A DNA stretch of 64,000 nt from an uncultured Pseudomonadales bacterium (GTDB taxonomy: Bacteria > Patescibacteriota > Microgenomatia > UBA1400 > CAYNMC01): contig CAYPXO010000002.1 of assembly GCA_964414895.1 (NCBI GenBank), positions 35,211-99,210 of the forward strand. Reading direction: 5' to 3'. Numbering within the stretch: position 1 is the stretch's first letter; each line of letters starts with the position of its first letter. The position numbers were made by a program, and so were the translations under genes. Shown here piece by piece: positions 14,903 to 61,896 of this stretch. Under the pieces are notes generated by a model. That model did no database searches. It saw nothing but the letters and a program-made list of their open reading frames with translations, and was not told where the DNA came from.

Positions 14903-15778
14903 CTAAAATTCCCCTAAAAAGAAAATCTCCGGTTCGAGTTCTATCTTACAGTCCATCTTCACTTTTTTACAAACCAGCTTAATTAATTTTACAACTTGTT
15001 CGGCTTTACCTCCACCAACGTTGATAAAAAAATTAGCGTGTCTCTCACTTATTTTTACCCCTCCTATTTTCTTGCCTTTCAAACCTACTTTATCAATCAA
15101 ATAACCGGCCGATTTACCTTTAGGGTTTTTAAAAATACAGCCAGCTGATTTGCCTTTCGGCTGATTGCTTCTTTCCTTTAATGTTTCCTTTATTTTTCTC
15201 TTCAAAGTACTTTCATTCTCTTTGTTTAATTTAAAACTAGCGCTAAGAACTATCATCCCTTTTTTTCGTAAGCTCGACCAGTCATAAGAAAAATCCAAGT
15301 CCTTCTTTTTAAAAACTTTTCTTTCAAGATTTTTATTTAAAACTTCCACTTTCTCCAAACAGTCGGAAAAAAAGTGATCCTTCCAATGACTGTTATTATA
15401 AACTGCTCCACCAACTGTTCCCGGCAGGCCAGCGAAAAATTCCAAACCTCCTAAACCTCTATTCACCGTTTCTTCTACAATTCTATTCACCATCACTCCT
15501 CCTTCGCAATAGGCTTTCTCATTTTGAATTTTGAATTTTGAATTTTGAATTTTTATTACCAATCCCCTCACTCCCTTATCAGCTACCAATAAATTACTTC
15601 CCCCACCTAAAATATAAAAAGGTAATTTTTTGGCTTTTGCCCAGTTAACGGCTTTGACAATCTGCTGGCTGTTTCTAGCCTCAAAAAAATAATCGGCCGG
15701 CCCGCCAATACCAAAAGTAGTAAAAGGAGCCAAATCAATATCCTTTTTAATCTTGAATTTTAATCTTGAATTTTGCAT
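14903..15778 (-). CDS. murB: UDP-N-acetylenolpyruvoylglucosamine reductase MurB
   Basis: FAD-binding N-terminus FTTFGIGGPADYF...ILGGGSNLL; carries an in-frame (AATTTTG)4 array. Confidence 0.85.
   Translation of the reverse strand: MQNSRLKFKIKKDIDLAPFTTFGIGGPADYFFEARNSQQIVKAVNWAKAKKLPFYILGGGSNLLVADKGVRGLVIKIQNSKFKIQNEKAYCEGGVMVNRIVEETVNRGLGGLEFFAGLPGTVGGAVYNNSHWKDHFFSDCLEKVEVLNKNLERKVFKKKDLDFSYDWSSLRKKGMIVLSASFKLNKENESTLKRKIKETLKERSNQPKGKSAGCIFKNPKGKSAGYLIDKVGLKGKKIGGVKISERHANFFINVGGGKAEQVVKLIKLVCKKVKMDCKIELEPEIFFLGEF
15521..15554. repeat. Heptanucleotide tandem array (AATTTTG/CAAAATT)x4.5 inside murB
   Basis: attttgaattttgaattttgaattttgaattttt; translated in frame as KIQNSKFKIQN. Confidence 0.8.
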
Positions 15779-23899: not shown

Positions 23900-23940
23900 T
23901 CAACAAAAAAACACTCTAATGATTCGAATCATTAGAGTGT
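23900..23940 (-). terminator. Rho-independent terminator of the upstream GDH-like gene
   Basis: Perfect 30-bp palindrome ACACTCTAATGATTCGAATCATTAGAGTGT, followed on the minus strand by TTTTTTTGTTGATTTTT. Confidence 0.65.
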
Positions 23941-24066
23941 TAAAGAAATTAATCTCTTCCTAAAACTATTCTCCCCAACCTGGATTTCCCCAACCAGTTC
24001 GAGCAGGAGAAGAGAGAGTCTTTCTGTTTTTTCTAGAGAGTTAGTTTTTTTAAATTTTTGATATTC

Positions 24067-32098: not shown

Positions 32099-32102
<4 letters not shown>
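30993..32102 (-). CDS. manC: Mannose-1-phosphate guanylyltransferase-like nucleotidyltransferase
   Basis: VIFAGGVGTRMWPVSR...PKQF N-terminus. Confidence 0.65.
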
Positions 32103-33200
<1,098 letters not shown>

Positions 33201-33223
<23 letters not shown>

Positions 33224-34280
33224 AAACTTCCAGTGTTCTCTCGGCACATTTTCTCCAAGAATACTTCTCAGTTTGCTCTTTTCCCAACTTAATTAATTTC
33301 TCTTTTTCTTTCTTGTTCATCTTTAAAAACTTGTTTATTTTTCTGCTAATATTACCAATATCCTTAGGGTCAAAATAAAAAGCTGCTCTTCCATAAATCT
33401 CTCTAAAAACAGGAATGTTCGAACAAACCACCGGACAACCAAGACTCATCGCCTCCAACCCGGGTAAACCAAAACCTTCCATTAAAGAAGGATTGATAAA
33501 ACAAAGGGCATTTTTATAAAGAGAGACTAATTCTTTGTCCGAAGCCGCCCCATAGAATATAATTTTTTCTTCTAAATTACTCTTTTCCACTGTCTTTTTT
33601 AATCTTTCATAAAAATAATCCTCTGGCCCTACAAATAATAATTTTAAATTTTGAATTTCAATTTTGAATTTGTCATTTTTAATTTTGAATTTATTAAATG
33701 CCTCTATCAACCTCTCTAAATTTTTATGCGGATAAGCATTTCCCACATAAAGTAAGTAGCTGGTAGCTGGTAGCTGGTAGCTGGTAGCTGGCTTTCTCTT
33801 CTTGAACTTTGAATCAACTCCTTCATAAATAACAACTATTTTCTCTGGGCTAACTTTCAAACATCTAACAATCTCTTTCTTAGTTGTCTTAGAAACAGCA
33901 ATAATCTTCTCTGCCTTTCTTGCTCCAATAAAAAGAAGCATTTTATAACAAAAATGTTTTATTTTATAAAACAAGCCCGGAAGACTGCTTGCCCTTCCGG
34001 TTTTAAAACGCCAAGGAATCAAATCATGAATAGTAAGAACAAACTTGCCTGGATAAAAAAGAGGAAAAGAAAAATAAGTAAAGTGAACTAAATTAAAATT
34101 TTTTTTTAGCAACCAAAAAGGAAAGCAGACTTGCTCGGCCAAAGAATGCCAGCGAAATTTTGGCTTAATAAGAATATATTCGTTCCTCTTATTAAACCTC
34201 TTTAATTGATTAAAGAGGTTTTTGGCATATCTTCCAACACCGGTTTGATCTATTAAACGACCATCGATTGCAACTTTCAT
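33201..34280 (-). CDS. Glycosyltransferase family 4 (GT-B); carries an in-frame (TAGCTGG)5 array
   Basis: MKVAIDGRLIDQTGVGRY...EGFGLPGLEAMSLGCPVV; the upstream ORF extension to 34349 is a translation of a GC hairpin island. Confidence 0.7.
33757..33791. repeat. Heptanucleotide tandem array (TAGCTGG)x5 inside a GT4 gene
   Basis: tagctggtagctggtagctggtagctggtagctgg; encodes PATSYQLPATSY. Confidence 0.8.
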
Positions 34281-34286
34281 AAAAAT

Positions 34287-34345
34287 ACCGGGCGGGTCAC
34301 GACCCGCCCCTACTGTAGGGGCGGCCGGTCGGGGGCCCGGCAACA
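34287..34345. repeat. GC-rich tandem hairpin island
   Basis: GGGCGGGTCacGACCCGCCC (9-bp stem), GCCCCTActgTAGGGGC (7-bp stem), GGCCGGTCGGGGGCCCGG. Confidence 0.6.
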
Positions 34346-34350
34346 ACACG

Positions 34351-35250: not shown

Positions 35251-36431
35251 TTTTCTCCTAACTCCTGATAAATCTTGTCCAAATGGGAAGAAATAATCTC
35301 CCAGTTATACTTCTCTTGAACCAGCTTTTTTGCTTTTTTGGCAATCTTCCTTCCTAACAAAGGAGAAGATAATAACCTCAAAGCTTGCTTGGCTAATCTT
35401 TCAGCACTTTTAGCAATTAAAACTTCTTTTTCATTAACAACATCTATACCCTCAATACCAAGAGGGGTGGTAACAACAGGTAAACCAGTCGCCATTGCTT
35501 CCAAAACTTTATATTTTGTCCCCCGACCATTTCTAATAGGAGCTAACAAAACCGAAGCACCGCCAAAAGCTTCCCTTATATCCTCAAGGCTCTCGTCAAC
35601 TTTAATATCCGGTCCGGAGAGTGACTTTATCTCTTTGGTAGGATTTTTGCCTACAATCCAAAGTTGAGCATGAGATAGTTTTCTCTTAATCAACGGCCAA
35701 ATTTTCCGAGCTAAAAAACAGGCAGCATCTTTATTTGGCAACCATTTAAAGTTACCAACAAAAAGGACAGCTGGTTTACTTGGTTTTTTTACCTTCGTGG
35801 CATTAAAAAAATCGCTATCAACCCCGTTGGCAACAACATCTACTTTCACTCCCTTTAATGTTTTTTCAACAATTTTTTTATCTTCAACGGACATTGTTGC
35901 CAAACGAGCCGCTTTTTTCCAATAATGTTTTTCCCAAAACTGAATTTTCAAAACATCGAGAAAAAGTAAAGGCTTGAGAGGCCAAAATTTAAAATTGTGC
36001 ACAAAATTCTCATAAACCAAAGACTCAATCGTTTGCTCAACCAAAAGAATGGGCAAATTGGTTTCCGGCAAATTAGGCATTACATAAAAAGTTTCTGCAT
36101 GAATAAGGTCGTAATTATTCCTTGCCAGCTCCTTCTTAATAAGGCCCTTTAATGACAAAGAAAGATAGATTGCTACCAAAAACGGGTAAGGAGTAAAACC
36201 AGCCAAAGCGAGGTTTTTCCAACTCCAGGCTCGCCTCCTTTGGATAACTTCAACCTTCTTACAATACCTAAGAAGTTCCTTTATATGTTTTTTCTCCTTC
36301 TCTTCCCTAATAAAGGAAAACAAAGTTATCTCATGCTTTAAGCTTAAATTTTTCAAAAGATTGTAAGTCCGAATTTGCCCACCAGAAAGCAAAGGATAAG
36401 GGAAATAAGGGGTAAGCATTAGAATTTTCAA
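35247..36431 (-). CDS. Glycosyltransferase family 4
   Basis: MKILMLTPYFPYPLLSGGQIRTYNL...EGIDVVNEKE... Confidence 0.75.
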   Translation of the reverse strand: MKILMLTPYFPYPLLSGGQIRTYNLLKNLSLKHEITLFSFIREEKEKKHIKELLRYCKKVEVIQRRRAWSWKNLALAGFTPYPFLVAIYLSLSLKGLIKKELARNNYDLIHAETFYVMPNLPETNLPILLVEQTIESLVYENFVHNFKFWPLKPLLFLDVLKIQFWEKHYWKKAARLATMSVEDKKIVEKTLKGVKVDVVANGVDSDFFNATKVKKPSKPAVLFVGNFKWLPNKDAACFLARKIWPLIKRKLSHAQLWIVGKNPTKEIKSLSGPDIKVDESLEDIREAFGGASVLLAPIRNGRGTKYKVLEAMATGLPVVTTPLGIEGIDVVNEKEVLIAKSAERLAKQALRLLSSPLLGRKIAKKAKKLVQEKYNWEIISSHLDKIYQELGEK

Positions 36432-36504
36432 GTCTCGAATGTCAAGTGTTAAGTGTCAAAGTAAGTTCTTTACTGACACTGCCCCTTGAACAAAAATAAC
36501 AAAG

Positions 36505-37965
36505 TTATCTAAAATCACATCTTCGAAGGTCAACAATTGCAAAACTCTCCTGTTCTTCCAATAATAAGCATTGCTTCTTCAAATCTTTCAGCTCCTGATC
36601 CTTCTTAACCGTTACATAAAAACTTGCTCCTTTTTTTATCCTATCTTCAATATTGCCTCCAATCGGCCAGCCTTTTCTTTCGGTTTGATATAAAAAGGCT
36701 GTGTCTCCTCCATAAGGAGCAATTACCTTATCTTCCTCCTGGCTTAGCTTTTTTACTTGTTGGCCGGCAGCCACTATTTCCGGATGATTAATATTAAAAA
36801 AGTCTCTTACTTGATACCAACCAAAAGACTCCATAAACAAAAAGCAGCCAGCAGCCAGCAGCCAGCAGCCAAGGGAACTGAATATCTTTCGTGCTTCCTT
36901 TAACAAAAATAAAACCCCTCGAGCCAGAAAAATACAAACAACTGGAATGATTAAAATCTGATAATAGTCGTGGCGAACATTGCCAGTAGCTACTACTGCT
37001 AAATAAGCCAAACAGCTCAAAAACCAAAAATGAAAAAGGTAGCTTGACTTCTGGGAAGCTTTTCTTAAAAGACCAAAAGCCAAAAAAATCACCCCCCAAT
37101 AGCCCAAAATTAATTTAGCAAGCCTTTCGGCAAATAACCAATAAAACCAAGCTCCTTTAAAACGAATCTCATCACCGTTTAAAAGCCACATATTGGCGGG
37201 AATTCCTTCAGGGAACTGCTGAATCCAAAGCCGCCAGACAGCAAAAGGCAACAACCCAATAAATAAATAAATAAATAAGCCAATAAATAAATAAAGTTTT
37301 TTCTTAGATTGAAAAAACTTTTTAATAAAAATATATAAAACCGGTGGCAATATCAAAAAAAGAGCAAACGGTTTAAGAAGTAGAGCAATTATAAAAAAAA
37401 TAGAAGAAAGAAAGAAATTGAAAATTGAAAATTGAAAATTGAAAATTGAATTTGTTCCCTTTATAAAAAAATAAACAGAACCTAAACTCGTTGCTATCAT
37501 CATCGGCTCAGGCAAAATCACTCGGTTGTAATAAATGTTGTAAGGCAGAACTGCATAAAAAAAAGCTGTTATTAAAGCAAGAGGCAAACCAGCAATTTCA
37601 CCAACAATTAAAAAAAGGAAAATTATTGTTCCTAACGAAAAGAAAATTGACAATAATCTTCCTCCCGTCTCAAAACTAACAAATGAAAAAAGCTTGAAAA
37701 AAAGGCTGTGTAAAAAGGCAAAGATGGGAAACTCCACCATCCGGTATCCTTGAGGGTTCTCTTGTCCTGAAGCAATAGTGGATAAATCATCATACTTTGG
37801 TTTTAGAAGGTCAATTTCTTGATTGACAAAATTCCTTGCCACTGCCGCCGTATCTGCTTGACGCCAAGAATGCCAATCGGCCAAAGGAGCAGTTATCCTA
37901 TAAGTCCTTAAAATAAAAGCTAAAACCAAAATCAATAAAAGAAAAGCAAATTCTTTTTTAAACAT
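36505..37965 (-). CDS. GT-C fold membrane glycosyltransferase (GT39/GT83, ArnT/PMT-like) carrying three in-frame repeat arrays
   Basis: N-terminal WRQADTAAVARNF motif region, more than 10 TM helices; contains (GAAAATT)4.5, (CAGCCAG)3.7 and CCAATAAATAAATAA x2. Confidence 0.55.
   Translation of the reverse strand: MFKKEFAFLLLILVLAFILRTYRITAPLADWHSWRQADTAAVARNFVNQEIDLLKPKYDDLSTIASGQENPQGYRMVEFPIFAFLHSLFFKLFSFVSFETGGRLLSIFFSLGTIIFLFLIVGEIAGLPLALITAFFYAVLPYNIYYNRVILPEPMMIATSLGSVYFFIKGTNSIFNFQFSIFNFFLSSIFFIIALLLKPFALFLILPPVLYIFIKKFFQSKKKLYLFIGLFIYLFIGLLPFAVWRLWIQQFPEGIPANMWLLNGDEIRFKGAWFYWLFAERLAKLILGYWGVIFLAFGLLRKASQKSSYLFHFWFLSCLAYLAVVATGNVRHDYYQILIIPVVCIFLARGVLFLLKEARKIFSSLGCWLLAAGCFLFMESFGWYQVRDFFNINHPEIVAAGQQVKKLSQEEDKVIAPYGGDTAFLYQTERKGWPIGGNIEDRIKKGASFYVTVKKDQELKDLKKQCLLLEEQESFAIVDLRRCDFR
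36844..36873. repeat. Heptanucleotide tandem array (CAGCCAG)x3.7
   Basis: cagccagcagccagcagccagcagcc; in frame (WLLAAGCWLL). Confidence 0.75.
37255..37295. repeat. Tandem duplication CCAATAAATAAATAA(ATAAG) x2 with (AAAT)n
   Basis: ccaataaataaataaataagccaataaataaataaag; encodes the duplicated LFIYLFIG. Confidence 0.7.
37414..37453. repeat. Heptanucleotide tandem array (GAAAATT)x4.5
   Basis: gaaattgaaaattgaaaattgaaaattgaaaattgaattt; encodes FNFQFSIFNF in frame. Confidence 0.85.
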
Positions 37966-39637: not shown

Positions 39638-40403
39638 TGCCTAATAGTATACCAAAAATAAAAATCCTTAGGAGAGCTCCAATCTTCAATAAAAGTTCAA
39701 GAATAACTTTTTCCCAAGAAGGTTTGTGTTTTTCAAAAAACAGCTTTAATCCCTTATATTCTGCCAAGATCGCTTTTTGAGATAAACTTCTAGGGCTTGC
39801 CTCTTTATAATGGATAATTTCCGGCTCCGGCACATAAAAAACTCGAAAGTCCTTTTTCTTGGCCCGAAAACAAAAATCGACTTCTTCGGCATACATAAAA
39901 TAGTCTTCATCAAAGCCACCAATTTCCTCCACTAATTTTCTCTTGGTTAACAAGAAGGCTCCGGTCACCCAATCAACTTTTCTCTGCTTTCTGTAAAAAC
40001 TTCTCCTCTGTTGGTGATAAGGCTTTAAAAAGAGATTAAAAACAGGCAAGTCATCTAAAAAAAACATCATATAAAAAATCTGGCGCAGTTTTGGGAAAAA
40101 ACCGGCTGATGGTTGGAGTGTCCTGTCTTTGTTTAAAAGCTTGCAACCCAAAATATCAATCTTCTCATTTTTATCTATTATTTTTACTGCCCTTTCTATT
40201 GCTTTTTCCAAAACAACTGTATCCGAGTTTAAAAAAAGAACATATTCACCCTTTGCCTTTCCAATCGCCTGATTACATGCTTTAGCAAACCCCAAATTTT
40301 TTTTGTTTCGGATAAGCCTAATATTTAAGCTTGCATATTTCTTCTTGACACTTGACACTTGACACTTGACACTATAATCCGATCCATTATCAACAACGAT
40401 CAC
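39591..40403 (-). CDS. Glycosyltransferase family 2 (GTG start per ORF track; the conserved N-terminus LTLTIIIPSFNTKEYLEDCIRSI continues in frame to 40520 without a canonical start)
   Basis: VVDNGSD...; in-frame upstream codons encode the typical GT2 IIIPSFN motif and run to a TGA lying inside the class I element end. Confidence 0.7.
   Translation of the reverse strand: MIVVDNGSDYSVKCQVSSVKKKYASLNIRLIRNKKNLGFAKACNQAIGKAKGEYVLFLNSDTVVLEKAIERAVKIIDKNEKIDILGCKLLNKDRTLQPSAGFFPKLRQIFYMMFFLDDLPVFNLFLKPYHQQRRSFYRKQRKVDWVTGAFLLTKRKLVEEIGGFDEDYFMYAEEVDFCFRAKKKDFRVFYVPEPEIIHYKEASPRSLSQKAILAEYKGLKLFFEKHKPSWEKVILELLLKIGALLRIFIFGILLGNEEKKKIYWQAFKVA
40344..40373. repeat. Heptanucleotide tandem array (GACACTT)x4
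   Basis: cttgacacttgacacttgacacttgacact; encodes SVKCQVSSVK in frame. Confidence 0.8.
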
Positions 40404-40518
40404 TTCATAATCGATCCCTTTTGTCTCTCGCCATATGGAACGAATACAGTCTTCTAGATATTCTTTAGTATTAAAACTAGGGATGATGATGGTAAGAGTT
40501 AGTTGAGAAATTCTATTT

Positions 40519-40594
40519 TGTCATTCCTGCGAAAGCAGGAATCTATAAAAATAAATATTATCTGTATAGATTCCTGATCAAATCAGGAATGACC
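40519..40594. repeat. Class I nested-palindrome (REPIN-like) element, copy C
   Basis: TGTCATTCCTGCgaaaGCAGGAATCTATAAAAataaatattatcTGTATAGATTCCTGATcaaATCAGGAATGACC. Confidence 0.75.
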
Positions 40595-40601
40595 ACGAAG
40601 T

Positions 40602-41241: not shown

Positions 41242-42336
41242 TTAATTATCAGTAGTCTTCTGCAAAACCCTTATTGTCTTTTTGGCACATTTCTCCCAAG
41301 AGAATTTTTTTACTTGCTGCAAACCTTTTTTTATTAAATTATTCCTTTCCCTTTGCTTTGATTTTAACATCTTTGACAAACTTTTATAAATCGAATTATC
41401 AGAATAAGGGTTTTCAATATAAACCGCCGCCTCCCCTGCCACCTCAGGCAGGGAAGAAGTCTTGCTGGTTACAACCGGACAGCCGGCTGCCATTGCTTCA
41501 AGCACTGGTATGCCAAAGCCTTCATAGAGTGAAGGGTAAACAAAGCATAAGGCATTCTTTAATAAAGCTTGTTTTTCTTTTTCGCTGACAAAACCGGTAA
41601 AAATAACTTCTTTTTCTAAACCTAACTGTTTTACTTTATTAAATATCTCTTTGTAAAGCCAACCCTTCTTTCCAGCTATTACTAATTTAGTATTTAGGGA
41701 TAAGTATTTAGTATTTAGGGAAGCGAAAGCTTCTATAAGACGAGTGAGGTTTTTTCTGGGCTGGAGAGTGCCGAGGTAAAGAAGATAATTGCTAGCTGGT
41801 AGCTTTTTAAATTCATTCTTTATTCTTGATTCTTTATTCTTGATTCTTTTACTTAGTCCCGGATAAGTAACGGTAATTTTCTCCTCCGGATAATCATAAA
41901 AATGGATAATCTCCTTTTTAGTAAACTCTGAGATGGTAAAAATATGAGCCGCTTTTTTAATTGAATACCTTGTCCAGTTTTTTAGCTGCCAAAGATCGCT
42001 CTTTTTAAACTGCTCAGGAAAACGCCAGAAAGCTAAATCCATAATAGAAATCACCCTTGGGCAAGAAGAAAACCGAGGAGCATAATGACCCGGAGTAAAA
42101 AATAAATCCGGTTTAGGCCGCAAAAAGAATAATTCCAAAGGCAGCCGCCACTGCGTCCACCATAACCCCGGCCGCAAAACCTTATATCGCCACCAACCTG
42201 TCTCTTTAGGTAAATCATCTAAAAGTTTATCTTTCAAAAAAATTTTGAATTTTAAACTGCAATCCTGCCTGCCGGCAGGCAAGGTTTTAATTTTTAATTT
42301 TTCATTTTTAATTTGTCTATATATTTCCCACAACAA
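41242..42336 (-). CDS. Glycosyltransferase family 4, paralog a (tandem duplicate of 42515-43693)
   Basis: C-terminal half identical to paralog b (YLLYLGTLQPRKNL...EGFGIPVLEAMAAGCPVVTSKTSSLPEVAGEAAV). Confidence 0.75.
   Translation of the reverse strand: MLWEIYRQIKNEKLKIKTLPAGRQDCSLKFKIFLKDKLLDDLPKETGWWRYKVLRPGLWWTQWRLPLELFFLRPKPDLFFTPGHYAPRFSSCPRVISIMDLAFWRFPEQFKKSDLWQLKNWTRYSIKKAAHIFTISEFTKKEIIHFYDYPEEKITVTYPGLSKRIKNKESRIKNEFKKLPASNYLLYLGTLQPRKNLTRLIEAFASLNTKYLSLNTKLVIAGKKGWLYKEIFNKVKQLGLEKEVIFTGFVSEKEKQALLKNALCFVYPSLYEGFGIPVLEAMAAGCPVVTSKTSSLPEVAGEAAVYIENPYSDNSIYKSLSKMLKSKQRERNNLIKKGLQQVKKFSWEKCAKKTIRVLQKTTDN
41682..41721. repeat. 21-bp tandem duplication TAAGTATTTAGTATTTAGGGA x1.9
   Basis: Encodes the duplicated KYLSLNT in the GT4-a interdomain linker. 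Confidence 0.75.
41814..41848. repeat. Heptanucleotide tandem array (ATTCTTK)x5
   Basis: attctttattcttgattctttattcttgattcttt; encodes RIKNKESRIKNE. Confidence 0.75.
42263..42283. repeat. Class II core palindrome CCTGCCTGCCGGCAGGCAAGG inserted in frame near the GT4-a N-terminus
   Basis: Encodes LPAGRQDCS; paralog b has NCNA at the homologous position. Confidence 0.7.
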
Positions 42337-42416
42337 CTCATAAGAATAAACATTACTACCTACTCTTTCTTTTATATTCGCTTCGTTACCGTCAATGGCA
42401 ATAAAAATAGTAGTTA

Positions 42417-42449
42417 GTAGTTAGTAGTTAGTAGTTAGGGATCCTCTGT
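42417..42449. repeat. Heptanucleotide tandem array (TAGTAGT)x4.5, intergenic, abutting class I half-element D
   Basis: tagtagttagtagttagtagttagtagttaggg. Confidence 0.8.
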
Positions 42450-42455
42450 CATTCC

Positions 42456-42496
42456 TGGCTCCGACCAGGAATCTATACAAATAAATCTTATTACTT
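42456..42496. repeat. Class I half element (solo REP-like hairpin), copy D
   Basis: TGTCATTCCTGGctccgaCCAGGAATCTATACAAATAAATC with no right half. Confidence 0.65.
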
Positions 42497-42514: not shown

Positions 42515-43693
42515 TCAACTACCTACTTCCTCATAAACTTTTAGTGTTTCCCTTGCACATTTTTCCCAAGAGAATTTTTTTACTTGCTGCAAACCTTTTT
42601 TTCTTAGATTGCTTTGCAACCGTTTACTTCCCAAAACTTTTTTAATTGCTAAACCAATTTCATCGACCTTCTGCGGATTAACTAAAACCGCCGCCTCCCC
42701 TGCCACCTCAGGCAGAGAAGAAGTCTTGCTGGTTACAACCGGACAGCCGGCTGCCATTGCTTCAAGCACTGGTATGCCAAAGCCTTCATAGAGTGAAGGG
42801 TAAACAAAGCATAAGGCATTCTTTAATAAAGCTTGTTTTTCTTTTTCGCTGACAAAACCGGTAAAAATAACTTCTTTTTCCAAACCTAACTCTTTTACTT
42901 TATTAAATATCTCTTTGTAAAGCCAACCTTTCTTTCCAGCCATTACTAATTTTAGATCTTCAAGTTTTTTTGTTTTTGAGTTTGTGTTTTTGGTTTTTGG
43001 TTTTTGGTTTTTAACATTGGCAAATGCTTTGACTAGCCTAATGAGGTTCTTCCTAGGCTGGAGGGTGCCTAAATAGAGTAAGTAATTGTTGCTAATATTA
43101 TATTTTTTCTTAATAGCTTTAAGCTTTGCGCTGTGGCTTTGCGCTTTGAGCTTTGCGCTTTGAGTTTTTCCTAAATATACTATCCTGATTCTTTCTTCAC
43201 TGAAACCCAACAAACTAACCAAATCATCTTTAGTCGCCTTTGAGTCGGCTATTACTAAATCAGACTCCTCTTTTACCCAGTAAAGCCGCCTTTTCTGCGT
43301 TTTGATAATCTTTTTAGGAAAAGTTTCCGGAAAGTGCAAAAAAGACAAATCATGAACTGTAGTTACTTTTTTTGCCCTTGTTGGCGGTTGTATCCAATCC
43401 GAGGAATGAAAAATGTCAACTCTTCCAATCAACCTCTCAACTTCTAAAAGATGTAGCTTATTCCATAGAAATTCTAGAGGCGTCGGAGGAATAGGAAAAA
43501 TTTTAAATTTTGCATTGCAGTTTTTAATTTTACATTTTAAATTTTGAATTTTCTCTCTTTGCCTTAAAGAATAACCCAAAAAAATATACTCGTTCTTTTT
43601 ATCAATTCTTAAAAGATTATCTACCAGCTTTTCAGTATAACGGCTAACGCCTGTCTGGTAAACTATTTGACTAATATCAATCCCTATTTTCAT
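42515..43693 (-). CDS. Glycosyltransferase family 4, paralog b
   Basis: MKIGIDISQIVYQTGVSRY...; the linker is encoded by repeat arrays (TTTTTGG and GCTTTGCGCTTTGAG). Confidence 0.75.
   Translation of the reverse strand: MKIGIDISQIVYQTGVSRYTEKLVDNLLRIDKKNEYIFLGYSLRQREKIQNLKCKIKNCNAKFKIFPIPPTPLEFLWNKLHLLEVERLIGRVDIFHSSDWIQPPTRAKKVTTVHDLSFLHFPETFPKKIIKTQKRRLYWVKEESDLVIADSKATKDDLVSLLGFSEERIRIVYLGKTQSAKLKAQSHSAKLKAIKKKYNISNNYLLYLGTLQPRKNLIRLVKAFANVKNQKPKTKNTNSKTKKLEDLKLVMAGKKGWLYKEIFNKVKELGLEKEVIFTGFVSEKEKQALLKNALCFVYPSLYEGFGIPVLEAMAAGCPVVTSKTSSLPEVAGEAAVLVNPQKVDEIGLAIKKVLGSKRLQSNLRKKGLQQVKKFSWEKCARETLKVYEEVGS
42966..43012. repeat. Degenerate heptanucleotide array (TTTTTGG)n
   Basis: tttttgtttttgagtttgtgtttttggtttttggtttttggttttt; encodes KNQKPKTKNTNSKTKK. 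Confidence 0.7.
43116..43166. repeat. About 15-bp tandem array GCTTTGCGCTTTGAG x3
   Basis: Encodes SAKLKAQSHSAKLKA. Confidence 0.7.
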
Positions 43694-43775: not shown

Positions 43776-44546
43776 TTATTTAATTCTCCCTTCTATTTTA
43801 ACAAAAAATATCTGCCGATAATAAGGCGGCTTATCCCAAAGCTTAAAAAAAGGAATCAAAAACAAAAAAATCTTTCTAAATAAAAAATCAACAAAAATAT
43901 TTTTTGTCATCCAACCCTTCATTAAAAAATTTCTCAAGCCTAAATTTTCATTACCCTGAATTTTAATTCCGACTTTCTTTTTTTCTCTTTTTGCTGCTAA
44001 TTTAATTAATTGAACTATTTCTTCTTTCTTTGGCAAACCATATTCCAAATGCTCTTTAAAAAAAGAAAAAGGCTGCTTAAAAACCTGTTGGTATCTTTTA
44101 TCTAATTTTTTATCTTGAATAAAACTTTTCTTTCCACAAGGAACAGCTATAAAAACCTCTCTTTTTGCCACCCGTAGAACTTCTCTTATCGCTTTTTCCC
44201 TTTTTGTCTTCTGCAAGTGTTCCAGAACATCAACACAAACAACAAAATCAAAACTATCTCTTTTAAAGGGTAGCTTTAAAACGCTTCCCTTTATCTGCTT
44301 TAACAAACCAAACTTCCTTCCTTCAAAATCCTCATCCAAACCAACAACCTCTTTTCCTAAATAAGGAGCAATCCCCAGCCACCCCGACCCCACTTCAAGA
44401 ATAGAAATTTCTTTGACACTTGACACTTGACACTTGACACTTCTTGCTATCGGCCAGTATCTAATCGCTACTTCTGGATGCCAACGAAAAAAATTGAAAA
44501 TTGAAAATTGAAAATTGAAAATTTTATTTACGATACTCATAAACAA
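43776..44546 (-). CDS. Class I SAM-dependent methyltransferase (type 11-like)
   Basis: ILEVGSGWLGIAPYLG motif I, DFVVCVDVLEHL motif; the N-terminus carries the (GAAAATT)4.5 and (GACACTT)4 arrays. Confidence 0.6.
   Translation of the reverse strand: MFMSIVNKIFNFQFSIFNFFRWHPEVAIRYWPIARSVKCQVSSVKEISILEVGSGWLGIAPYLGKEVVGLDEDFEGRKFGLLKQIKGSVLKLPFKRDSFDFVVCVDVLEHLQKTKREKAIREVLRVAKREVFIAVPCGKKSFIQDKKLDKRYQQVFKQPFSFFKEHLEYGLPKKEEIVQLIKLAAKREKKKVGIKIQGNENLGLRNFLMKGWMTKNIFVDFLFRKIFLFLIPFFKLWDKPPYYRQIFFVKIEGRIK
44413..44442. repeat. Heptanucleotide tandem array (GACACTT)x4
   Basis: ttgacacttgacacttgacacttgacactt. Confidence 0.8.
44487..44525. repeat. Heptanucleotide tandem array (GAAAATT)x4.5
   Basis: aaaattgaaaattgaaaattgaaaattgaaaatttt. 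Confidence 0.85.
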
Positions 44547-46084: not shown

Positions 46085-46921
46085 CTAATAATAGCCTTTA
46101 AACAATATCTTCTCCAATAAACCAACAAATGAACCAAAATCAAAAACAATTTTAAAAATTAAAAACTCCGCTTTATTAAACCAAACTGCTTTAAAAAAAC
46201 TAATTATTAAAGAAATCGGTAAAAAAGATTTAAGCAGATGAAAAAAATCGCCTAACACTCCCCCTTTATATTTTCTTTTTGCCCGCCATTTGGCTTGAAA
46301 GAAAACCTCTCTTAAATTCTCCGGATTATAATGATAATAGAAAGCTCCTTTGGCCAAACTAGCTTTGTAACCTAGTTTTTCACTCAAACTCCAGTCATCG
46401 GTGTAGCCAGTTTTTTCAAAGCCGCCTGCTTTGAGAAACTCAGATTTTAAAATCGCCCGAAAAACTGGCGAACGGTTGGGATAATTTCTAGGGATTTTTC
46501 TTTTATTCTTAAGCCCAAAATTATAGTTCCAGCATTTTGCCCAAAGATTGCTCCAGTTGGCCACATATTCATCTTTAGAAAAAGTCCCTTTAACCCTTCC
46601 TTGTTTAATTGGTTGAATTAGATTTTTAATAAAATTTTTATCAAAAACCATATCACTATCAACAAAAACTAAAATCTCTCCTTTTGCCTGTTTGGCTCCC
46701 AAATTCCTCGCCGCCCCCGCACCCTTATGTTTCTGTCTAAAAATTGAAAATTGAAAATTGAAAATTGAAAATTCTGACAAAATATCTGATATTTTGTCAG
46801 TGCTCCCATCATCAATTACAACAATTTCCAAGTCTTTAAAAGTCTGTTTTTTTAAACTTTCAAGGCACTCTGGCAAATATCTATATTTATTATAAACAGG
46901 AATAATTACGGAAACTTTCAC
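46085..46921 (-). CDS. Glycosyltransferase family 2; carries an in-frame (GAAAATT)4.5 array
   Basis: MKVSVIIPVYNKYRYL...VVIDDGSTD. Confidence 0.75.
   Translation of the reverse strand: MKVSVIIPVYNKYRYLPECLESLKKQTFKDLEIVVIDDGSTDKISDILSEFSIFNFQFSIFRQKHKGAGAARNLGAKQAKGEILVFVDSDMVFDKNFIKNLIQPIKQGRVKGTFSKDEYVANWSNLWAKCWNYNFGLKNKRKIPRNYPNRSPVFRAILKSEFLKAGGFEKTGYTDDWSLSEKLGYKASLAKGAFYYHYNPENLREVFFQAKWRAKRKYKGGVLGDFFHLLKSFLPISLIISFFKAVWFNKAEFLIFKIVFDFGSFVGLLEKILFKGYY
46738..46773. repeat. Heptanucleotide tandem array (GAAAATT)x4.5
   Basis: aaaattgaaaattgaaaattgaaaattgaaaattc; encodes EFSIFNFQFSIF. Confidence 0.85.
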
Positions 46922-60291: not shown

Positions 60292-61896
60292 TGAAATTGC
60301 ACAAAATCTTACTAGCTTAAATATAAAAACCAATAAGGCCAATAAATAAACAGCCAATAGAACCACCAAGTAATATCCCTTAGCAAACCAGGGCTTATAT
60401 TGACTGGCTTGAATGATAAACTTTCTAAAATTTGACAGATCATAATAAGAGCCGATCACCCAAAAAAAGGCAAAAGAGTTTATAAAAATAAACCATAAAC
60501 AGAGCGAAAAGCGAAAAGCGAAAAGCGAAAAGCGAATTATTTTTTTATTTATTTTTAAAACTCTCCTTATTATTCTCACAATCAAAGCCCAAAAAGTTTC
60601 CAAACCTACAACTAATAAAATTATATGAGGAATAATTACTGGAAAATAATACCTGCCTTGAATTCCAAAAGAAAAACCATGAGCTCGAAAAAAACACCAA
60701 TCCCAAACAAAAAGAGCAAAGAAATAAACTAAAGCAGTGTAAAAAATAAAAAGTAAAAGCAAATTTTGTCTATTAAACCGCCTGTTTTTTGCTAATAAAA
60801 ACTTTATTAATAACCCGACAAGCCCAGCGGCCAAAAGACGCATCAAAACTCGGTTGATCCACCTTGGTAAAACTAAAGACAGCCAACGAAAGACTCCCCA
60901 ATACCAGGGAATCACTTCTTTTATTGTATGCCTCACCGTCCAGCCAAAGTGCTTCCAAATACTATAATTCTTGAGTGAAGGCAAAACATTATAATCAAAA
61001 TAAGGAAGTTCTCCGGAGAATATAGATTTAACCAAAGCGTATATCAAACCCTCCCTAAACTTCACAATTATCAATACAAAAATAAGTAAAAATAATAACT
61101 TCAAAAACAATCTACGCCTATAAAGAACTAAAAATATAACTGGCACTAAAATAATAGCAAGTCCTACAAGAAAATTATGCTTTGTAAAAGAACCAAAAAT
61201 GAAACAAGTTAGCAATAAAGATAAATTAACTAAATTAGGTTTTGCCATCAATAAAATTGAAAAACAAATCAAGCCACTGAAAAACAAATTTAAAATGTTG
61301 TCTATGGAAACTCCAGAACTTACAAAAGTAAACATCGGATGAAAAGAAACTAATAAAGGAACAGTAAGTTGATATTCTACTTTGCTGGGAAAAATTTCTT
61401 TAGCAATCAAAAAAGATAAATAAACCATCAAAACAATAGAGAAAAGCCAAAAAATTCTTATCACAAAAACCCGAACAAACAAATTCTCATAATAAAATAA
61501 TTTATAAACCAATCCGGAAATTTTATAAAAAAAAGAATTATAAGCTGCTGCTTCTTTCCCGACAAAGTCCTTCCGGGTCGAAAGAGGAACATTTTTAATT
61601 TCCTCTTCTCTTAATCCAAAGGAATCATCCGAATATCCAATATTGAACTCTGGATGATAAGTAAATTTATTATTACCCCCGCCGTCCCGTTTAGTTCCCA
61701 GGATTTTTTCAGAAAGCAAAATTTCCTCAGAAAGATTCAAGCCCTGCCCAATTGATTCACCTCCTTCGGCTAAATACTCTACATGGGCAAAATGAGCCTG
61801 TTCGTCAGGAAAATGCCAAAGAGGAATAAAAAAAGACCAAACTAAACCTTTTAAAAAAGTAATTGCAATAATTAAAAATAGTAATCGTTTCATCAT
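60241..61896 (-). CDS. Polytopic membrane protein with PDE..HF motif (GT-C/DUF2142-like), paralog 2
   Basis: IPLWHFPDEQAHFAHVEYLAE; the C-terminal residues (HSEILCHPERSEGSP) are translated from class I element F; carries a (GCGAAAA)4 array. Confidence 0.4.
   Translation of the reverse strand: MMKRLLFLIIAITFLKGLVWSFFIPLWHFPDEQAHFAHVEYLAEGGESIGQGLNLSEEILLSEKILGTKRDGGGNNKFTYHPEFNIGYSDDSFGLREEEIKNVPLSTRKDFVGKEAAAYNSFFYKISGLVYKLFYYENLFVRVFVIRIFWLFSIVLMVYLSFLIAKEIFPSKVEYQLTVPLLVSFHPMFTFVSSGVSIDNILNLFFSGLICFSILLMAKPNLVNLSLLLTCFIFGSFTKHNFLVGLAIILVPVIFLVLYRRRLFLKLLFLLIFVLIIVKFREGLIYALVKSIFSGELPYFDYNVLPSLKNYSIWKHFGWTVRHTIKEVIPWYWGVFRWLSLVLPRWINRVLMRLLAAGLVGLLIKFLLAKNRRFNRQNLLLLFIFYTALVYFFALFVWDWCFFRAHGFSFGIQGRYYFPVIIPHIILLVVGLETFWALIVRIIRRVLKINKKIIRFSLFAFRFSLCLWFIFINSFAFFWVIGSYYDLSNFRKFIIQASQYKPWFAKGYYLVVLLAVYLLALLVFIFKLVRFCAISCHSEILCHPERSEGSP
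60504..60538. repeat. Heptanucleotide tandem array (GCGAAAA)x4.5
   Basis: gcgaaaagcgaaaagcgaaaagcgaaaagcgaatt; encodes FAFRFSLC in frame. Confidence 0.8.

What the first reader, a model, noticed from the sequence alone, without database searches (positions are those of the whole stretch)
37414..37453. Identical (GAAAATT)4.5 heptamer arrays embedded in frame in four unrelated genes
Arrays occur at 37414 (GT-C gene), 44487 (methyltransferase N-terminus), 46738 (GT2) and, as the one-base variant CAAAATT, at 15521 (murB). They have the same length and no shared flanking sequence, and each is translated as FNFQFSIFNF-type (or KIQNSKFKIQN-type) peptide. A degenerate 12-13-bp relative encodes KFKIKNDKFKIEIQN at 33640-33700, and similar KFKI motifs sit at the N-termini of both GT4 paralogs. 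Recurrence of the same unit at the same copy number is not expected from independent slippage and suggests copying or insertion of a small module.
Basis: seen in the sequence. Interest (0 to 1): 0.75.

Follow-up and report, generated by a model that had tools for sequence, protein, structure and literature searches.

The report
In-frame heptamer microsatellites inside Patescibacteria genes
The identical 7-base repeats are real, but they are home-grown microsatellites that grow from short native seeds in frame-preserving steps or overwrite native codons, not a module pasted in from elsewhere, and related bacteria carry such repeats at the same protein sites with constantly changing units.

Summary
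The window, from a Patescibacteria (Microgenomates-group) MAG, holds 11 perfect heptamer arrays of 27-36 nt. Simulations give none, and periods 5, 6 and 8-12 have 0-1. About nine degenerate arrays are also present. All 10 coding arrays are read through in frame.

They are not inserted modules. At the methyltransferase N-terminus a relative carries a native 13-nt seed (AATTTTCAATTTT) and the window has exactly 21 nt (3 units) more. That explains the shared copy number of about 4.9. In MurB, a GT-C membrane helix and a GT2 gene, the arrays replace native codons with no length change.

Dozens of related genomes carry arrays at the same MurB and GT-C sites with different units. Genomes 97% identical differ in every copy of the unit but not in length, which indicates concerted evolution.

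Composition-matched control heptamers are equally common in viral contigs, so GAAAATT is not a special element.

Heptamer repeat excess in bacteria is known. In-frame, site-persistent, often length-neutral arrays inside conserved enzymes look like a new variant. The mechanism I propose, out-of-register realignment by 7 nt, is inferred and not shown.

The parts
15521..15553 (-). murB array, (AAAATTC)4.7 on the coding strand, peptide KIQNSKFKIQN. It overlays the native beta-hairpin that follows the G-L-V-I motif.
   Evidence: The array is perfect. It aligns without gaps to 15 homologs and lies within +1/-2 aa of solved MurB structures. Six other genomes carry a perfect array of a different unit starting at the same codon.
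32613..32650 (-). GT4 (32099-33247) array of alternating units, (AAACTGG CAACTGG)2.4, in the interdomain linker.
   Evidence: TRF reports period 14 at 100%. The unit layout is shown. The window is +4 aa relative to the L131 ortholog.
33640..33700 (-). GT4 (33201-34349) degenerate AAAATTS-type array, peptide KFKIKNDKFKIEIQN, in the loop after the LIEAF helix.
   Evidence: Described. The window is +11 aa relative to L131, whose native DNA is CAAAAAATTGAAAATTAT, an AAAATTG seed.
33756..33791 (-). GT4 (33201-34349) array, (CCAGCTA)5.1, peptide PATSYQLPATSY, in the interdomain linker.
   Evidence: The array is perfect. It is a net insertion of about 8 aa relative to the L131 ortholog, which has only S-Y at this place.
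36428..36459 (.). Degenerate CTTGACA-class array in inverted orientation, at the junction between the GT4 start and the intergenic region.
   Evidence: TRF reports 72% matches. The unit layout TTGACAC TTAACAC TTGACAT is shown.
36843..36871 (-). GT-C/PMT_2 array, (GGCTGCT)4.1, peptide LGCWLLAAGC, inside a transmembrane helix. It is length-neutral.
   Evidence: The aligned segment is 27 aa in the window and in 72 of 118 homologs. L131 has native TGTTGGTTGCTGGTG, a 2.1-copy quasi-repeat, at the same codons. Twelve heptamer-encoded stretches from about 10 different units occur at this site among the homologs.
37415..37450 (-). The array at the finding's own coordinates: GT-C/PMT_2, (AATTTTC)5.1, peptide SIFNFQFSIFNF, in a length-variable loop.
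   Evidence: The array is perfect. The loop segment ranges from 16 to 40 aa among homologs, with modes at 25 and 27 and 30 in the window. Homologs carry other heptad arrays here, for example KVQSQKSKVKS.
40344..40373 (-). GT2 (39591-40520) array, (AGTGTCA)4.3, peptide SVKCQVSSVK. It is length-neutral.
   Evidence: It aligns without gaps to L131's QIKEQIAKIK, and the V/I-K positions are retained.
41685..41849 (-). Two arrays in GT4 (41242-42336): (CTAAATA)4.9 with one diverged unit at 41685-41718, and alternating (AAAGAAT CAAGAAT)2.5 at 41815-41849. They occupy the same two structural sites as the arrays in the paralogous GT4 genes.
   Evidence: Described.
42238..42314 (-). A-rich heptamer stretches on both sides of a GC-rich palindrome (CCTTGCCTGCCGGCAGGCAGG), all translated in frame at the GT4 N-terminus (…IKNEKLKIKTLPAGRQ…).
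   Evidence: Described (I1). The fold is not significant overall, z = -1.5.
42408..42438 (.). The only intergenic perfect array, (TAACTAC)4.4 on the minus strand. It has stop codons on both strands.
   Evidence: Described.
42966..43552 (-). Three arrays in GT4 (42515-43693): (AAAAACC) at 42966-43012, alternating (AAAGCGC/AAAGCTC) at 43116-43168, and degenerate AAAATTN at 43498-43552.
   Evidence: Described.
44413..44442 (-). Methyltransferase array, (AGTGTCA)4.3, peptide SVKCQVSSVK, in a variable loop before SAM motif I. It has the same unit and the same 30-nt length as the array at 40344.
   Evidence: Described. The loop is length-variable, and homolog P0295 has KVKSQKSKVKS at this site. No native seed of this unit class was found.
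44490..44523 (-). Methyltransferase N-terminal array, (AATTTTC)4.9, which equals the native 13-nt seed plus exactly 3 units.
   Evidence: L466 reads ATG AAT ATA TTA AAT AAA ATT TTC AAT TTT TGG. The window has the same sequence plus CAATTTT x3, that is 21 nt or 7 aa.
46740..46773 (-). GT2 (46085-46921) array, (AATTTTC)4.9, peptide SIFNFQFSIF, covering the loop and beta-strand 3 of the GT-A fold. A perfect 13-nt-arm hairpin lies directly upstream at 46774-46800.
   Evidence: It aligns without gaps to PDB entries 5hea and 2z87 and has the same segment length (37 aa) as the closest homologs. The site is bimodal (32-34 or 37-42 aa) in the wider family and carries heptad peptides in several homologs. 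The hairpin is shown.
60503..60536 (-). DUF2142 membrane protein array, (TTCGCTT)4.9, peptide FSLFAFRFSL.
   Evidence: Described. It was not analysed further, and there is no solved homolog.

Best explanation
These are heptanucleotide simple-sequence repeats, the same kind as the cyanobacterial STRR repeats and the heptamer excess described by Mrazek. They are generated locally from short native seeds and filtered by selection on the reading frame and on protein structure.

**Seeds.** AT-rich codon strings such as AAA ATT CAA AAT (K-I-Q-N) or ATT TTC AAT TTT (I-F-N-F) already hold 1.7-1.9 copies of a heptamer.

**Two outcomes of 7-nt misalignment (inferred).** During replication or repair the nascent strand can re-pair 7 nt out of register.
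- If it stays misaligned, units are added. In coding DNA only +3 units (21 nt, 7 aa) keeps the frame. Seeds therefore jump to about 4.7-5.1 copies, which is why unrelated genes show the same copy number.
- If it copies a few bases and realigns, or if out-of-register heteroduplex is repaired, neighbouring bases are overwritten to match the unit. The array then spreads or re-homogenises with no change in length.

**Selection.** Only arrays that are stop-free on the sense strand and whose peptide suits the local structure survive. MurB's hairpin carries A-rich, hydrophilic-coding units. The GT-C membrane helix carries T-rich, hydrophobic-coding units.

**Persistence.** Once established, an array stays at its site for very long periods. 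Its unit drifts and is repeatedly homogenised (concerted evolution).

**Shown:** local seeds, one exact +21-nt case, length-neutral replacement, arrays at orthologous sites, and unit turnover at constant length.

**Inferred:** the misalignment and realignment mechanism, and the absence of any function.
For: **The excess is specific to period 7.**
- 11 perfect arrays against 0 simulated, with other periods at 0-1.
- The same bias appears in other fetched loci: 234 period-7 arrays against 0-15 for other periods in 892 kb.

**The length spectrum is bimodal.** Background stretches end at 18 nt, none fall at 19-26 nt, and 11 arrays lie at 27-36 nt, which is seed plus 21 nt.

**One exact case of seed plus 3 units** is seen at the DNA level.

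**Native seeds exist in the syntenic relative L131**, which has no arrays in 15 kb.

**Some arrays replace native sequence without length change:**
- MurB.
- The GT-C helix.
- GT2 at 40344.

**The same MurB codon carries a perfect array of a different unit in other genomes.** Seven genomes were examined. Six carry perfect arrays of 31-39 nt, from five units 1-2 substitutions apart, and one carries a decayed array.

**Close relatives differ in unit but not in length.**
- Genomes 97% and 91% identical over 4.8 kb align without gaps, yet differ in every copy of the unit.
- One variant is present in only the two middle units.
- Within clusters of at least 90% identity, more than 60 MurB sequences show no length variants. 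They show only in-register substitutions, with intermediates.

**Protein-level test for heptamer-encoded stretches.**
- 28 of 120 MurB homologs and 12 stretches at the GT-C helix are positive.
- Shuffled proteins give 0 of 205.

**Strand and structure filters.** All 10 coding arrays are stop-free on the sense strand, and the one intergenic array is not.

**Array length.** Arrays in long ORFs reach at most 41 nt, against up to 106 nt in the non-coding class; the longest arrays fetched reach 130 nt.

**Unit recurrence.**
- Control units show that AAAATTS is not special.
- Seed-weighted sharing of a unit is only mildly in excess: 4 pairs against 1.3 expected.

**Literature.** Heptamer excess and the polymerase-slippage hypothesis are described in PMC4692102 and PMC4679880.
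Against: - The mechanism itself was not observed, and there are no read data.
- Gradual base-by-base conversion would predict intermediate arrays of 19-26 nt, and none exist in the window. The length-neutral arrays therefore need either a patch-like event or fast growth that has not been shown.
- The two 30-nt CTTGACA arrays, plus a degenerate third, have no native seed in the window or in related loci. That fits copying between loci better.
- 9 of the 11 perfect arrays lie within 15 kb of the glycosylation cluster (P = 7e-5). Relaxed constraint could explain this, but it was not tested.
- L131 has no arrays in 15 kb, which points to a lineage-specific factor that I could not identify.
- Nothing here explains why the period is 7.
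- The viral control set includes giant viruses and may not represent bacterial genomes.
Confidence: 0.55

Rival explanations
1. Slippage alone. All arrays arise and are re-homogenised only by gain and loss of whole units in multiples of three. Selection restores the native protein length through later deletions or re-contraction, and no overwriting or conversion step exists.
For: - One exact +21-nt expansion is seen.
- The arrays in GT4 linkers and loops are net insertions.
- The gap at 19-26 nt in the length spectrum fits jumps of 3 units.
- Alternating 14-nt arrays show that larger slippage steps occur.
- The GT2 site at 46740 has two length classes in the wider family.
Against: - No variant 7 aa shorter or longer is seen among 120 MurB homologs, or among more than 60 sequences in clusters of at least 90% identity, although the unit changes between genomes 97% identical.
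- A variant confined to the two middle units and the D/E intermediates look like conversion between units, not collapse and re-expansion.
- Three arrays in rigid protein elements are exactly length-neutral.
Confidence: 0.15
2. Contingency loci. The arrays are selected mutational switches. Gain or loss of one unit shifts the frame and turns surface-glycan genes off and on, as in E. coli neuO.
For: - 9 of the 11 perfect arrays lie in glycosyltransferase or methyltransferase genes of a surface-glycan cluster.
- A 7-nt unit is not divisible by 3.
- There are precedents. neuO carries a heptanucleotide tract in its 5' coding region and is ON only when the repeat number is divisible by 3 (PMC13001214). 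H. influenzae has (AATTTTG)14 with a frameshift inside hmw1a (PMC2651432).
Against: - The tracts are short (4-5 units, against 3-53 in neuO) and lie anywhere in the protein, including essential murB.
- Every array-bearing ORF in the window is intact across its arrays.
- No length variation is seen among more than 60 closely related MurB sequences.
- Coding arrays appear capped at about 41 nt, as expected if slippage-prone long tracts are selected against, not for.
- Strain variation in the glycosyltransferase genes could not be tested, because no close relatives exist in the collections.
Confidence: 0.12
3. Copied module. Existing arrays act as donors and are copied onto other loci. This could happen by ectopic gene conversion or by annealing of single-stranded array fragments at the replication fork, replacing about 30 nt without length change. 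It is the reader's 'copying' idea without insertion.
For: - Three AATTTTC arrays of 34-36 nt and two AGTGTCA arrays of exactly 30 nt lie within 10 kb of each other and share no flanks.
- The AGTGTCA class has no native seeds.
- Patch-like replacement would explain both the length neutrality and the missing 19-26 nt class.
Against: - Sharing of a unit is only mildly above the seed-weighted expectation, 4 pairs against 1.3.
- The methyltransferase array is explained fully by its own seed.
- At the murB site each genome has its own unit, not a genome-wide common one.
- Control units are equally common elsewhere.
Confidence: 0.1
4. Functional sequence motif. The arrays are kept perfect because a protein or RNA recognises them, for example as regulatory or nucleoid-binding sites or as RNA-binding sites, as proposed for the TAACTGA repeats of Beggiatoaceae.
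For: - Arrays stay perfect at the same site across deep divergence.
- MacGregor (2015) proposed binding of heptamer repeats by S1, Csp or CsrA-type proteins.
- In a 68% GC genome the same unit forms intergenic inverted pairs.
Against: - The unit sequence at one site changes freely between close relatives, which is hard to reconcile with sequence-specific recognition.
- No Rfam family matches.
- The fold around 42238-42314 is not significant.
- The positions of the arrays follow protein structural tolerance, not gene starts.
Confidence: 0.05

Closest known systems
Heptanucleotide long simple-sequence repeats in prokaryotes (Mrazek et al. 2007, as summarised in PMC4692102 and PMC4679880)
   Same: - Tandem heptamers are the over-represented repeat period.
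- Several unit families occur in one genome.
- Arrays are typically a few units long.
- Slippage linked to the polymerase footprint is the proposed origin.
- The 4-unit mode was also reported for the Xanthomonas GGGAATC arrays.
   Different: - The described cases are mostly intergenic and come from large genomes.
- Units divisible by 3 were reported as the ones found in coding regions.
- Here the arrays are in frame inside conserved enzymes of a small-genome Patescibacterium. They are often length-neutral, and they persist at orthologous sites.
STRR (short tandemly repeated repetitive) heptamers of heterocystous cyanobacteria (Mazel et al. 1990; recalled from my own knowledge, and cited for Calothrix in PMC4692102)
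   Same: - They are heptamer tandem arrays of a few copies, dispersed at many loci, with a few unit families per genome.
- Nostocales were prominent among the hits for (AAAATTS)4.
   Different: - The classical STRR units differ (CCCCAGT, TTGGTCA, CAACAGT; recalled from my own knowledge).
- In the fetched cyanobacterial loci the arrays lie mostly in short open frames, that is in intergenic DNA.
neuO-type phase-variable heptanucleotide tracts in coding regions (E. coli K1; PMC13001214)
   Same: - A heptamer array is translated in frame within a glycan-modifying enzyme.
- Only multiples of three units keep the frame.
   Different: - neuO tracts are long and hypervariable (3-53 units), lie at the 5' end, and are OFF in 65.6% of genomes.
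- Here the arrays are 4-5 units long, invariant in length among close relatives where this could be tested, lie anywhere in the protein, and also occur in essential murB.
TAACTGA direct repeats of marine Beggiatoaceae, Cyanobacteria and Bacteroidetes (MacGregor 2015, PMC4679880)
   Same: - A specific heptamer array is found in distant phyla with no known transfer mechanism.
- Orientation is constrained by stop codons.
- The window's one intergenic array, TAACTAC, differs from TAACTGA at two positions.
   Different: - Those repeats sit mainly just upstream of start codons.
- When coding, they lie at the periphery of proteins.
- One unit dominates there, whereas many units occur here.
Concerted evolution (molecular drive) of tandem arrays, as known for eukaryotic satellites and rDNA (established concept, from my own knowledge)
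   Same: Unit variants spread through all copies faster than the flanks diverge, and partially spread variants are seen.
   Different: The array here is only 4-5 units long, lies inside a protein-coding frame, and keeps its total length fixed.

Membership tests
Heptanucleotide simple-sequence repeat (microsatellite-like LSSR) | Head-to-tail perfect copies of a short unit, longer than chance allows. | tested here: met
   11 perfect arrays of 27-36 nt against 0 in 40 Markov-3 simulations.
Heptanucleotide simple-sequence repeat (microsatellite-like LSSR) | An excess specific to period 7, not a general excess of repeats. | tested here: met
   Periods 5, 6 and 8-12 have 0-1 arrays in the window. 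Other fetched loci have 234 period-7 arrays against 0-15 for other periods.
Heptanucleotide simple-sequence repeat (microsatellite-like LSSR) | Origin by local tandem duplication from a native short direct repeat. | tested here: met
   The methyltransferase array equals the native 13-nt seed plus 21 nt. Seeds are present in L131 at two other sites. This was not shown for the CTTGACA arrays.
Heptanucleotide simple-sequence repeat (microsatellite-like LSSR) | Copy-number polymorphism among close relatives. | tested here: not met
   No length variants occur among more than 60 MurB sequences in clusters of at least 90% identity, or among three genomes 91-97% identical. Variation is by in-register substitution. 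This was tested only at the murB site.
Phase-variable contingency locus | Tract length varies between strains or cells and produces ON and OFF reading frames. | tested here: not met
   All array-bearing ORFs are intact across their arrays. There is no length variation at murB. The glycosyltransferase genes could not be tested because no close relatives were found.
Phase-variable contingency locus | A long tract placed in the promoter or the 5' coding region of a surface or host-interaction gene. | tested here: inconclusive
   The gene class fits, since 9 of 11 arrays lie in glycan genes. The tracts, however, are 4-5 units long, lie at aa offsets 17-460, and include essential murB.
Small mobile or inserted element (MITE, REP or SDR-like module) | Shared ends, terminal inverted repeats or target-site duplication. 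| tested here: not met
   Same-unit arrays share no flanking similarity.
Small mobile or inserted element (MITE, REP or SDR-like module) | Presence or absence as a net insertion relative to orthologs that lack it. | tested here: not met
   The arrays in MurB, the GT-C helix and GT2 at 40344 align without gaps to array-free orthologs. Where length is gained, the gain is a local unit expansion from a native seed.
Small mobile or inserted element (MITE, REP or SDR-like module) | A specific sequence over-represented relative to composition-matched controls. | tested here: not met
   Viral contigs hold 47 stretches of AAAATTS against 44, 42 and 78 for three controls, and 2 of GTCAAGT against 1 for its control.
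Cyanobacterial STRR family | The canonical STRR units, in heterocystous cyanobacteria, mostly intergenic. | tested here: not met
   The organism is a Patescibacterium, the units differ, and 10 of the 11 perfect arrays are coding. It is the same kind of repeat but not a member of that family.

The most novel reading that the evidence does not exclude
Some bacterial lineages, including many Patescibacteria, may have a heptamer-specific process that writes repeats over existing sequence without changing its length. The cause could be a property of their replication or repair machinery, or a dedicated factor. This process would create and continually re-homogenise 30-35-nt arrays at fixed sites, even inside essential enzymes. 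The arrays would then be long-lived entities evolving by molecular drive, not ordinary slippage products. Because coding arrays record both length and register, they would give a direct handle on the old question of why bacterial repeats prefer 7 nt. They would also show which gene's presence tracks the activity: L131 has no arrays in 15 kb, while this genome has 9 in the syntenic and adjacent 15 kb.
Probability: 0.3. Interest if true: 0.75.

Novelty: new variant of a known kind. Interest (0 to 1): 0.55.

Why it matters
**The open question.** An excess of heptamer repeats in bacteria has been known since 1990 and 2007, but it has never been explained, and it has been studied almost only in intergenic DNA.

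**What the coding arrays add.**
- The arrays sit inside conserved proteins, so alignment to orthologs shows what each event did: +21 nt from a seed, or replacement at constant length.
- Phylogenetic series at one codon of murB show rapid unit turnover with the length fixed.
- This turns a descriptive oddity into something testable, for example by correlating array density with the repair and replication gene content of Patescibacteria.

**Practical consequences.**
- These arrays create 7-aa periodic, low-complexity stretches in enzymes, with local sequence unrelated to homologs. That can mislead alignment, phylogeny and structure prediction for candidate-phyla proteins.
- Any claim of phase variation in these organisms needs read-level evidence, not only the presence of a repeat.

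Tried and rejected
1. **A special cross-phylum element.** The genome scan found (AAAATTS)4 in Nostocales, Bacteroidota, many Patescibacteria and genomes of up to 68% GC, sometimes as inverted pairs around a GC-rich core. This first looked like a special cosmopolitan element. I rejected the idea after composition-matched control units gave equal counts in viral contigs.

2. **A preferred 32-nt module size.** The mode at 32 nt is a truncation effect. Lengths fall at 25, 32, 39 and 46 nt, that is 7n+4 with arrays running from AATT to AATT, and only arrays of at least 27 nt were selected.

3. **Strain variants of the murB array.** I searched the metagenomes with the exact flanks and found none. 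The window's own MurB was not on record in the contig index. No close relative of this genome exists in the collections; the best MurB match is 58% identical.

4. **A hairpin at 42238-42314.** The fold of array, palindrome and array is not significant (z = -1.5).

5. **RNA families.** There are no Rfam matches in the window.

6. **A compositional island.** The array-rich 32-47 kb region shows no anomaly in GC content or skew.

7. **The DUF2142 array.** There is no solved homolog to test it against.

8. **Strict length neutrality of the GT2 array at 46740.** This claim was weakened. The array aligns without gaps to PDB entries and to its nearest homologs, but the site has two length classes in the wider family.

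9. **Literature.** Searches found no report of heptamer arrays in Patescibacteria or candidate-phyla bacteria. Elhai's paper on small dispersed repeats could not be retrieved.
Full report
**1. The observation**

- The four arrays exist as described:

| Coordinates | Gene | Length | Copies |
|---|---|---|---|
| 37415-37450 | GT-C/PMT_2 | 36 nt | 5.1 |
| 44490-44523 | methyltransferase | 34 nt | 4.9 |
| 46740-46773 | GT2 | 34 nt | 4.9 |
| 15521-15553 | murB | 33 nt | 4.7 |

- A 21-nt GAAAATT pattern has 13 matches against 0.2 expected.
- All four arrays lie in long minus-strand ORFs and are read through as NFQFSIF-type or KIQNSKF-type peptide.
- Flanks are unrelated.
- On the coding strand murB reads AAAATTC and the others read AATTTTC. 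The "one-base variant" therefore holds only across strands.

**2. The finding is a slice of a larger pattern**

- The window has 11 perfect heptamer arrays of at least 3 copies, against none in 40 order-3 Markov simulations. Periods 5, 6 and 8-12 have 0-1.
- The other units are GTAGCTG, AGCAGCC, CTTGACA (twice), TAGTAGT, GTTTTTG and AGCGAAA.
- About nine degenerate or alternating-unit arrays are also present.
- Ten of the eleven perfect arrays are coding and stop-free on the sense strand. The only array with stops on both strands is the intergenic one.
- Nine of the eleven lie in 32-47 kb, within a surface-glycan gene cluster (P = 7e-5). Composition there is not unusual.
- The organism is a Patescibacteria/Microgenomates-group MAG. 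The closest MurB in 5.8 billion proteins is 58% identical.

**3. Are the arrays insertions? Mostly not**

*MurB.*
- The array peptide aligns without gaps to homologs.
- It lies within +1/-2 aa of solved MurB structures. It overlays a native beta-hairpin.

*GT-C.*
- The AGCAGCC array lies in a membrane helix whose aligned segment is 27 aa in the window and in 72 of 118 homologs.

*Comparison with the syntenic relative L131.* Its orthologs are 60-73% identical, and it has no heptamer array in 15 kb.
- GT2 at 40344: SVKCQVSSVK against QIKEQIAKIK, gap-free.
- GT-C at 36843: LGCWLLAAGC against YQCWLLVIIC, gap-free. The native DNA in L131 is already a 2.1-copy quasi-repeat, TGTTGGTTGCTGGTG.
- GT4 linkers and loops: the arrays are net gains of +4, about +8 and +11 aa. 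At one of these sites L131 carries a native AAAATTG AAAATTA seed, coding K-I-E-N.

*The clearest case: the methyltransferase N-terminus.*
- Relative L466 reads …AAT AAA ATT TTC AAT TTT TGG….
- The window has the same sequence plus exactly CAATTTT x3, which is 21 nt or 7 aa.
- A 1.86-copy seed plus 3 units gives 4.86 copies.

*The array at the finding's own coordinates (37415).*
- It lies in a loop that ranges from 16 to 40 aa among homologs.

*The GT2 array at 46740.*
- It aligns without gaps to PDB entries 5hea and 2z87 and to its nearest homologs.
- The site has two length classes in the wider family.

**4. Why the copy number is the same**

- The length spectrum of perfect period-7 stretches in the window is bimodal. 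Background ends at 18 nt, nothing lies at 19-26 nt, and the 11 arrays lie at 27-36 nt.
- In a genome that is almost entirely coding, adding one or two units shifts the frame. The smallest viable jump is 3 units.
- Seeds of 8-15 nt plus 21 nt give 29-36 nt. This accounts for the uniform 4-5 copies without any shared module.

**5. Orthologous sites and concerted evolution**

*Different units at the same murB codon.*
- DNA from six other Patescibacteria genomes shows arrays starting at the same murB codon, directly after G-L-V-I.
- Five are perfect arrays of 31-39 nt: (AAAATTC)5, (AAAATAC)5.6, (AAAGTCA)4.7, (AAATGTC)4.4 and (TCAATTT)4.6. One is decayed.
- Where measured, these MurB proteins are only about 45-50% identical to the window's.

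*Close relatives.*
- Three genomes, 97.2% and about 91% identical over 4.8 kb, align without gaps here but carry different units:
  - (TCAAATG)4.7;
  - TCAAATA TAAAATA TAAAATA TCAAATA;
  - (GCGAATT)4.6.
- One substitution is present in every unit, and a second is present only in the two middle units.
- Within clusters of at least 90% identity, more than 60 MurB sequences show no length variants. They show in-register substitutions with intermediates: RIQDTRYKIQDTRI, RIQDTRYTIQETRI and RIQETRYTIQETRI.

*A stringent protein-level test.* It asks whether a 7-aa periodic stretch is the exact three-frame translation of one heptamer.
- Positive in 28 of 120 MurB homologs at the hairpin (9 units).
- Positive in 12 stretches at the GT-C helix site (about 10 T-rich units coding hydrophobic residues).
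- Also positive at the GT-C loop and the two methyltransferase sites.
- Shuffled proteins give 0 of 205.

*Conclusion from this section.* Arrays persist at particular sites, stay perfect, keep their length and change their unit. This is concerted evolution.

**6. Is GAAAATT special?**

- In those loci, period 7 again dominates.
- In a 68% GC genome the same array forms intergenic inverted pairs around a GC-rich core.
- This suggested a cosmopolitan element, so I ran controls in the viral collection, where counts are complete:

| Unit | Stretches |
|---|---|
| AAAATTS | 47 |
| AAATATS (control) | 44 |
| AAATTAS (control) | 42 |
| AATAATS (control) | 78 |
| GTCAAGT | 2 |
| GTACAGT (shuffled control) | 1 |

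- The unit is therefore not preferred over composition-matched heptamers.
- Within the window, the chance that two arrays share a unit class is 0.0026 per pair if units are drawn from single heptamers. It is 0.024 per pair if they are drawn from actual 12-17-nt seeds, where AAAATTS classes rank high. The seed-weighted figure gives 1.3 expected shared pairs against 4 observed.
- The AAAATTS recurrences are thus largely explained by seed supply. The two 30-nt CTTGACA arrays, which have no seeds, are not explained.

**7. Mechanism**

*What is shown.*
- Origin from local seeds.
- An exact +3-unit expansion.
- Replacement at constant length.
- Persistence at orthologous sites.
- Unit turnover faster than divergence of the flanks.
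- Sense-strand and structural filtering.
- A cap of about 41 nt for arrays in long ORFs, against up to 106 nt in the non-coding class and 130 nt for the longest array fetched.

*What is inferred.*
- A 7-nt out-of-register re-pairing of the nascent strand could act, or of the two strands after unwinding. It would either persist and add units, or realign after copying or repair and convert neighbouring bases.
- The published proposal links the 7-nt preference to the DNA segment held by the polymerase. I have no new evidence on why the period is 7.

*Weak points.*
- The empty 19-26-nt class is not what slow base-by-base conversion predicts.
- The CTTGACA pair hints at copying between loci.
- The absence of arrays from L131 implies a lineage-specific factor that has not been identified.

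*A possibly related signal.*
- Perfect hairpins with arms of at least 11 nt number 6 against about 0.9 expected.
- Two of them lie inside glycosyltransferase ORFs, one directly upstream of the 46740 array.
- This would fit a genome prone to template switching, but the evidence is weak.

**8. Rivals**

- **Phase variation** has real precedents: neuO and the H. influenzae hmw1a (AATTTTG)14 tract. It also fits the gene class. Against it, the tracts are short, lie anywhere in the protein, are all intact across the array, occur in essential murB, and do not vary in length where I could test. It remains open for the glycosyltransferase genes because no close relatives or reads were available.
- **Slippage alone** fits the expansions, but not the length-invariant unit turnover.
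- **A functional binding motif** is hard to reconcile with free change of the unit at a fixed site.

**9. Comparison with what is known, and novelty**

- Heptanucleotide repeats are the most abundant long SSR class in many bacteria. They have been described for cyanobacteria (STRR), Xanthomonas and Beggiatoaceae, mostly in intergenic DNA.
- Coding examples were reported at the periphery of proteins or as long phase-variable 5' tracts.
- I found no report for Patescibacteria.
- Within the limits of the literature I could search, three features look like a new variant of a known kind:
  - in-frame arrays inside conserved domains;
  - arrays that are often length-neutral;
  - arrays that persist at orthologous codons across a phylum-level radiation, with rapid concerted unit change.

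**10. Verdict**

- The insertion or module reading is largely wrong. The intuition that the shared copy number needs explaining was right, and the explanation is frame constraint on native seeds.
- Interest is moderate, and higher if the length-neutral overwrite proves to be a distinct process that varies between lineages.

Noticed in passing
window 23293-23320, 40523-40548, 40570-40596, 42451-42478: A small hairpin element, TATAGATTCCTG-n6-CAGGAATGACA, recurs in intergenic DNA. Two copies form an inverted pair between 40520 and 40600, which resembles a REP or REPIN doublet. Y1_Tnp (RAYT-like) genes lie near murB in a related genome (L002).
   Followed up: partly
window 9851-9870, 20294-20313, 42264-42283: A GC-rich 20-nt palindrome, CCTGCCTGCCGGCAGGCAGG, occurs three times in a 36% GC window (0 expected). 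Two copies are intergenic. One is translated in frame (LPAGRQ) inside a GT4 gene, between A-rich heptamer stretches. The MurB homolog P0020 has a 'PALPAGR' insertion inside its array, so this may be a small palindromic element that lands in arrays.
   Followed up: partly
window 40403-40520: The GT2 gene 39591-40520 has a conserved N-terminus (LTIIIPSFN…, which aligns to solved GT2 structures from residue 9). There is no ATG, GTG or TTG between the upstream stop codon and 40403. The gene may use an unusual start codon such as ATT, or the start may have been lost.
   Followed up: partly
window 34194-34221, 46774-46800, 23910-23941, 62017-62042: Perfect hairpins with arms of 12-16 nt are in excess: 6 with arms of at least 11 nt, against about 0.9 in simulations. 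Two lie inside glycosyltransferase ORFs. One of these is directly upstream of the 46740 heptamer array. A 16+16-nt perfect palindrome lies upstream of mraZ.
   Followed up: partly
window 32617-32650, 41815-41849, 43116-43168: Some arrays are perfect 14-nt repeats of two alternating heptamer variants, for example AAACTGG CAACTGG. This implies slippage or duplication in two-unit steps.
   Followed up: no
P0055 cluster (Nealsonbacteria MurB) and P0415 (GT2 homolog): Some array peptides look like a heptamer array whose unit would contain a stop codon in one frame, with that codon changed by one base. KILNSKFYILNSK fits (ATTCTAA)n with TAA changed to TAT. KFEIRNLKFEI fits (AAATTTG)n with TGA changed to AGA or CGA. 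This was inferred from the protein sequence only.
   Followed up: no
L073:495-579 and L073:1928-2008 (Thermoanaerobaculia MAG, 68% GC): Two intergenic composite elements have the form (AATTGAA)4.3, then a 21-nt GC-rich loop, then (TTCAATT)4-5. The two loops are similar to each other (GTCGAGGCC and GTCGAAGCC). AT-rich heptamer arrays form 30-bp stems in a GC-rich genome, which resembles a MITE. Similar inverted pairs occur in L079 and L111.
   Followed up: partly
P0053, P0057, P0062 (MurB homologs): A 14-aa insertion (…KFDYVKDSSGMDNS…) splits the KIQNSKF array at the MurB hairpin site in one clade.
   Followed up: no
window 28000-62000: A very large surface-glycan cluster is present. It includes at least three PMT_2/GT-C paralogs, two DUF2142 membrane proteins (one with a weak PMT_2 match) and a PTPS-related membrane protein. 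It also holds six GT4 and five GT2 genes, two hexapeptide transferases, Wzy and Wzx-type genes, and sugar-nucleotide enzymes. Almost all genes lie on one strand, and GC skew is strongly negative throughout the window.
   Followed up: partly
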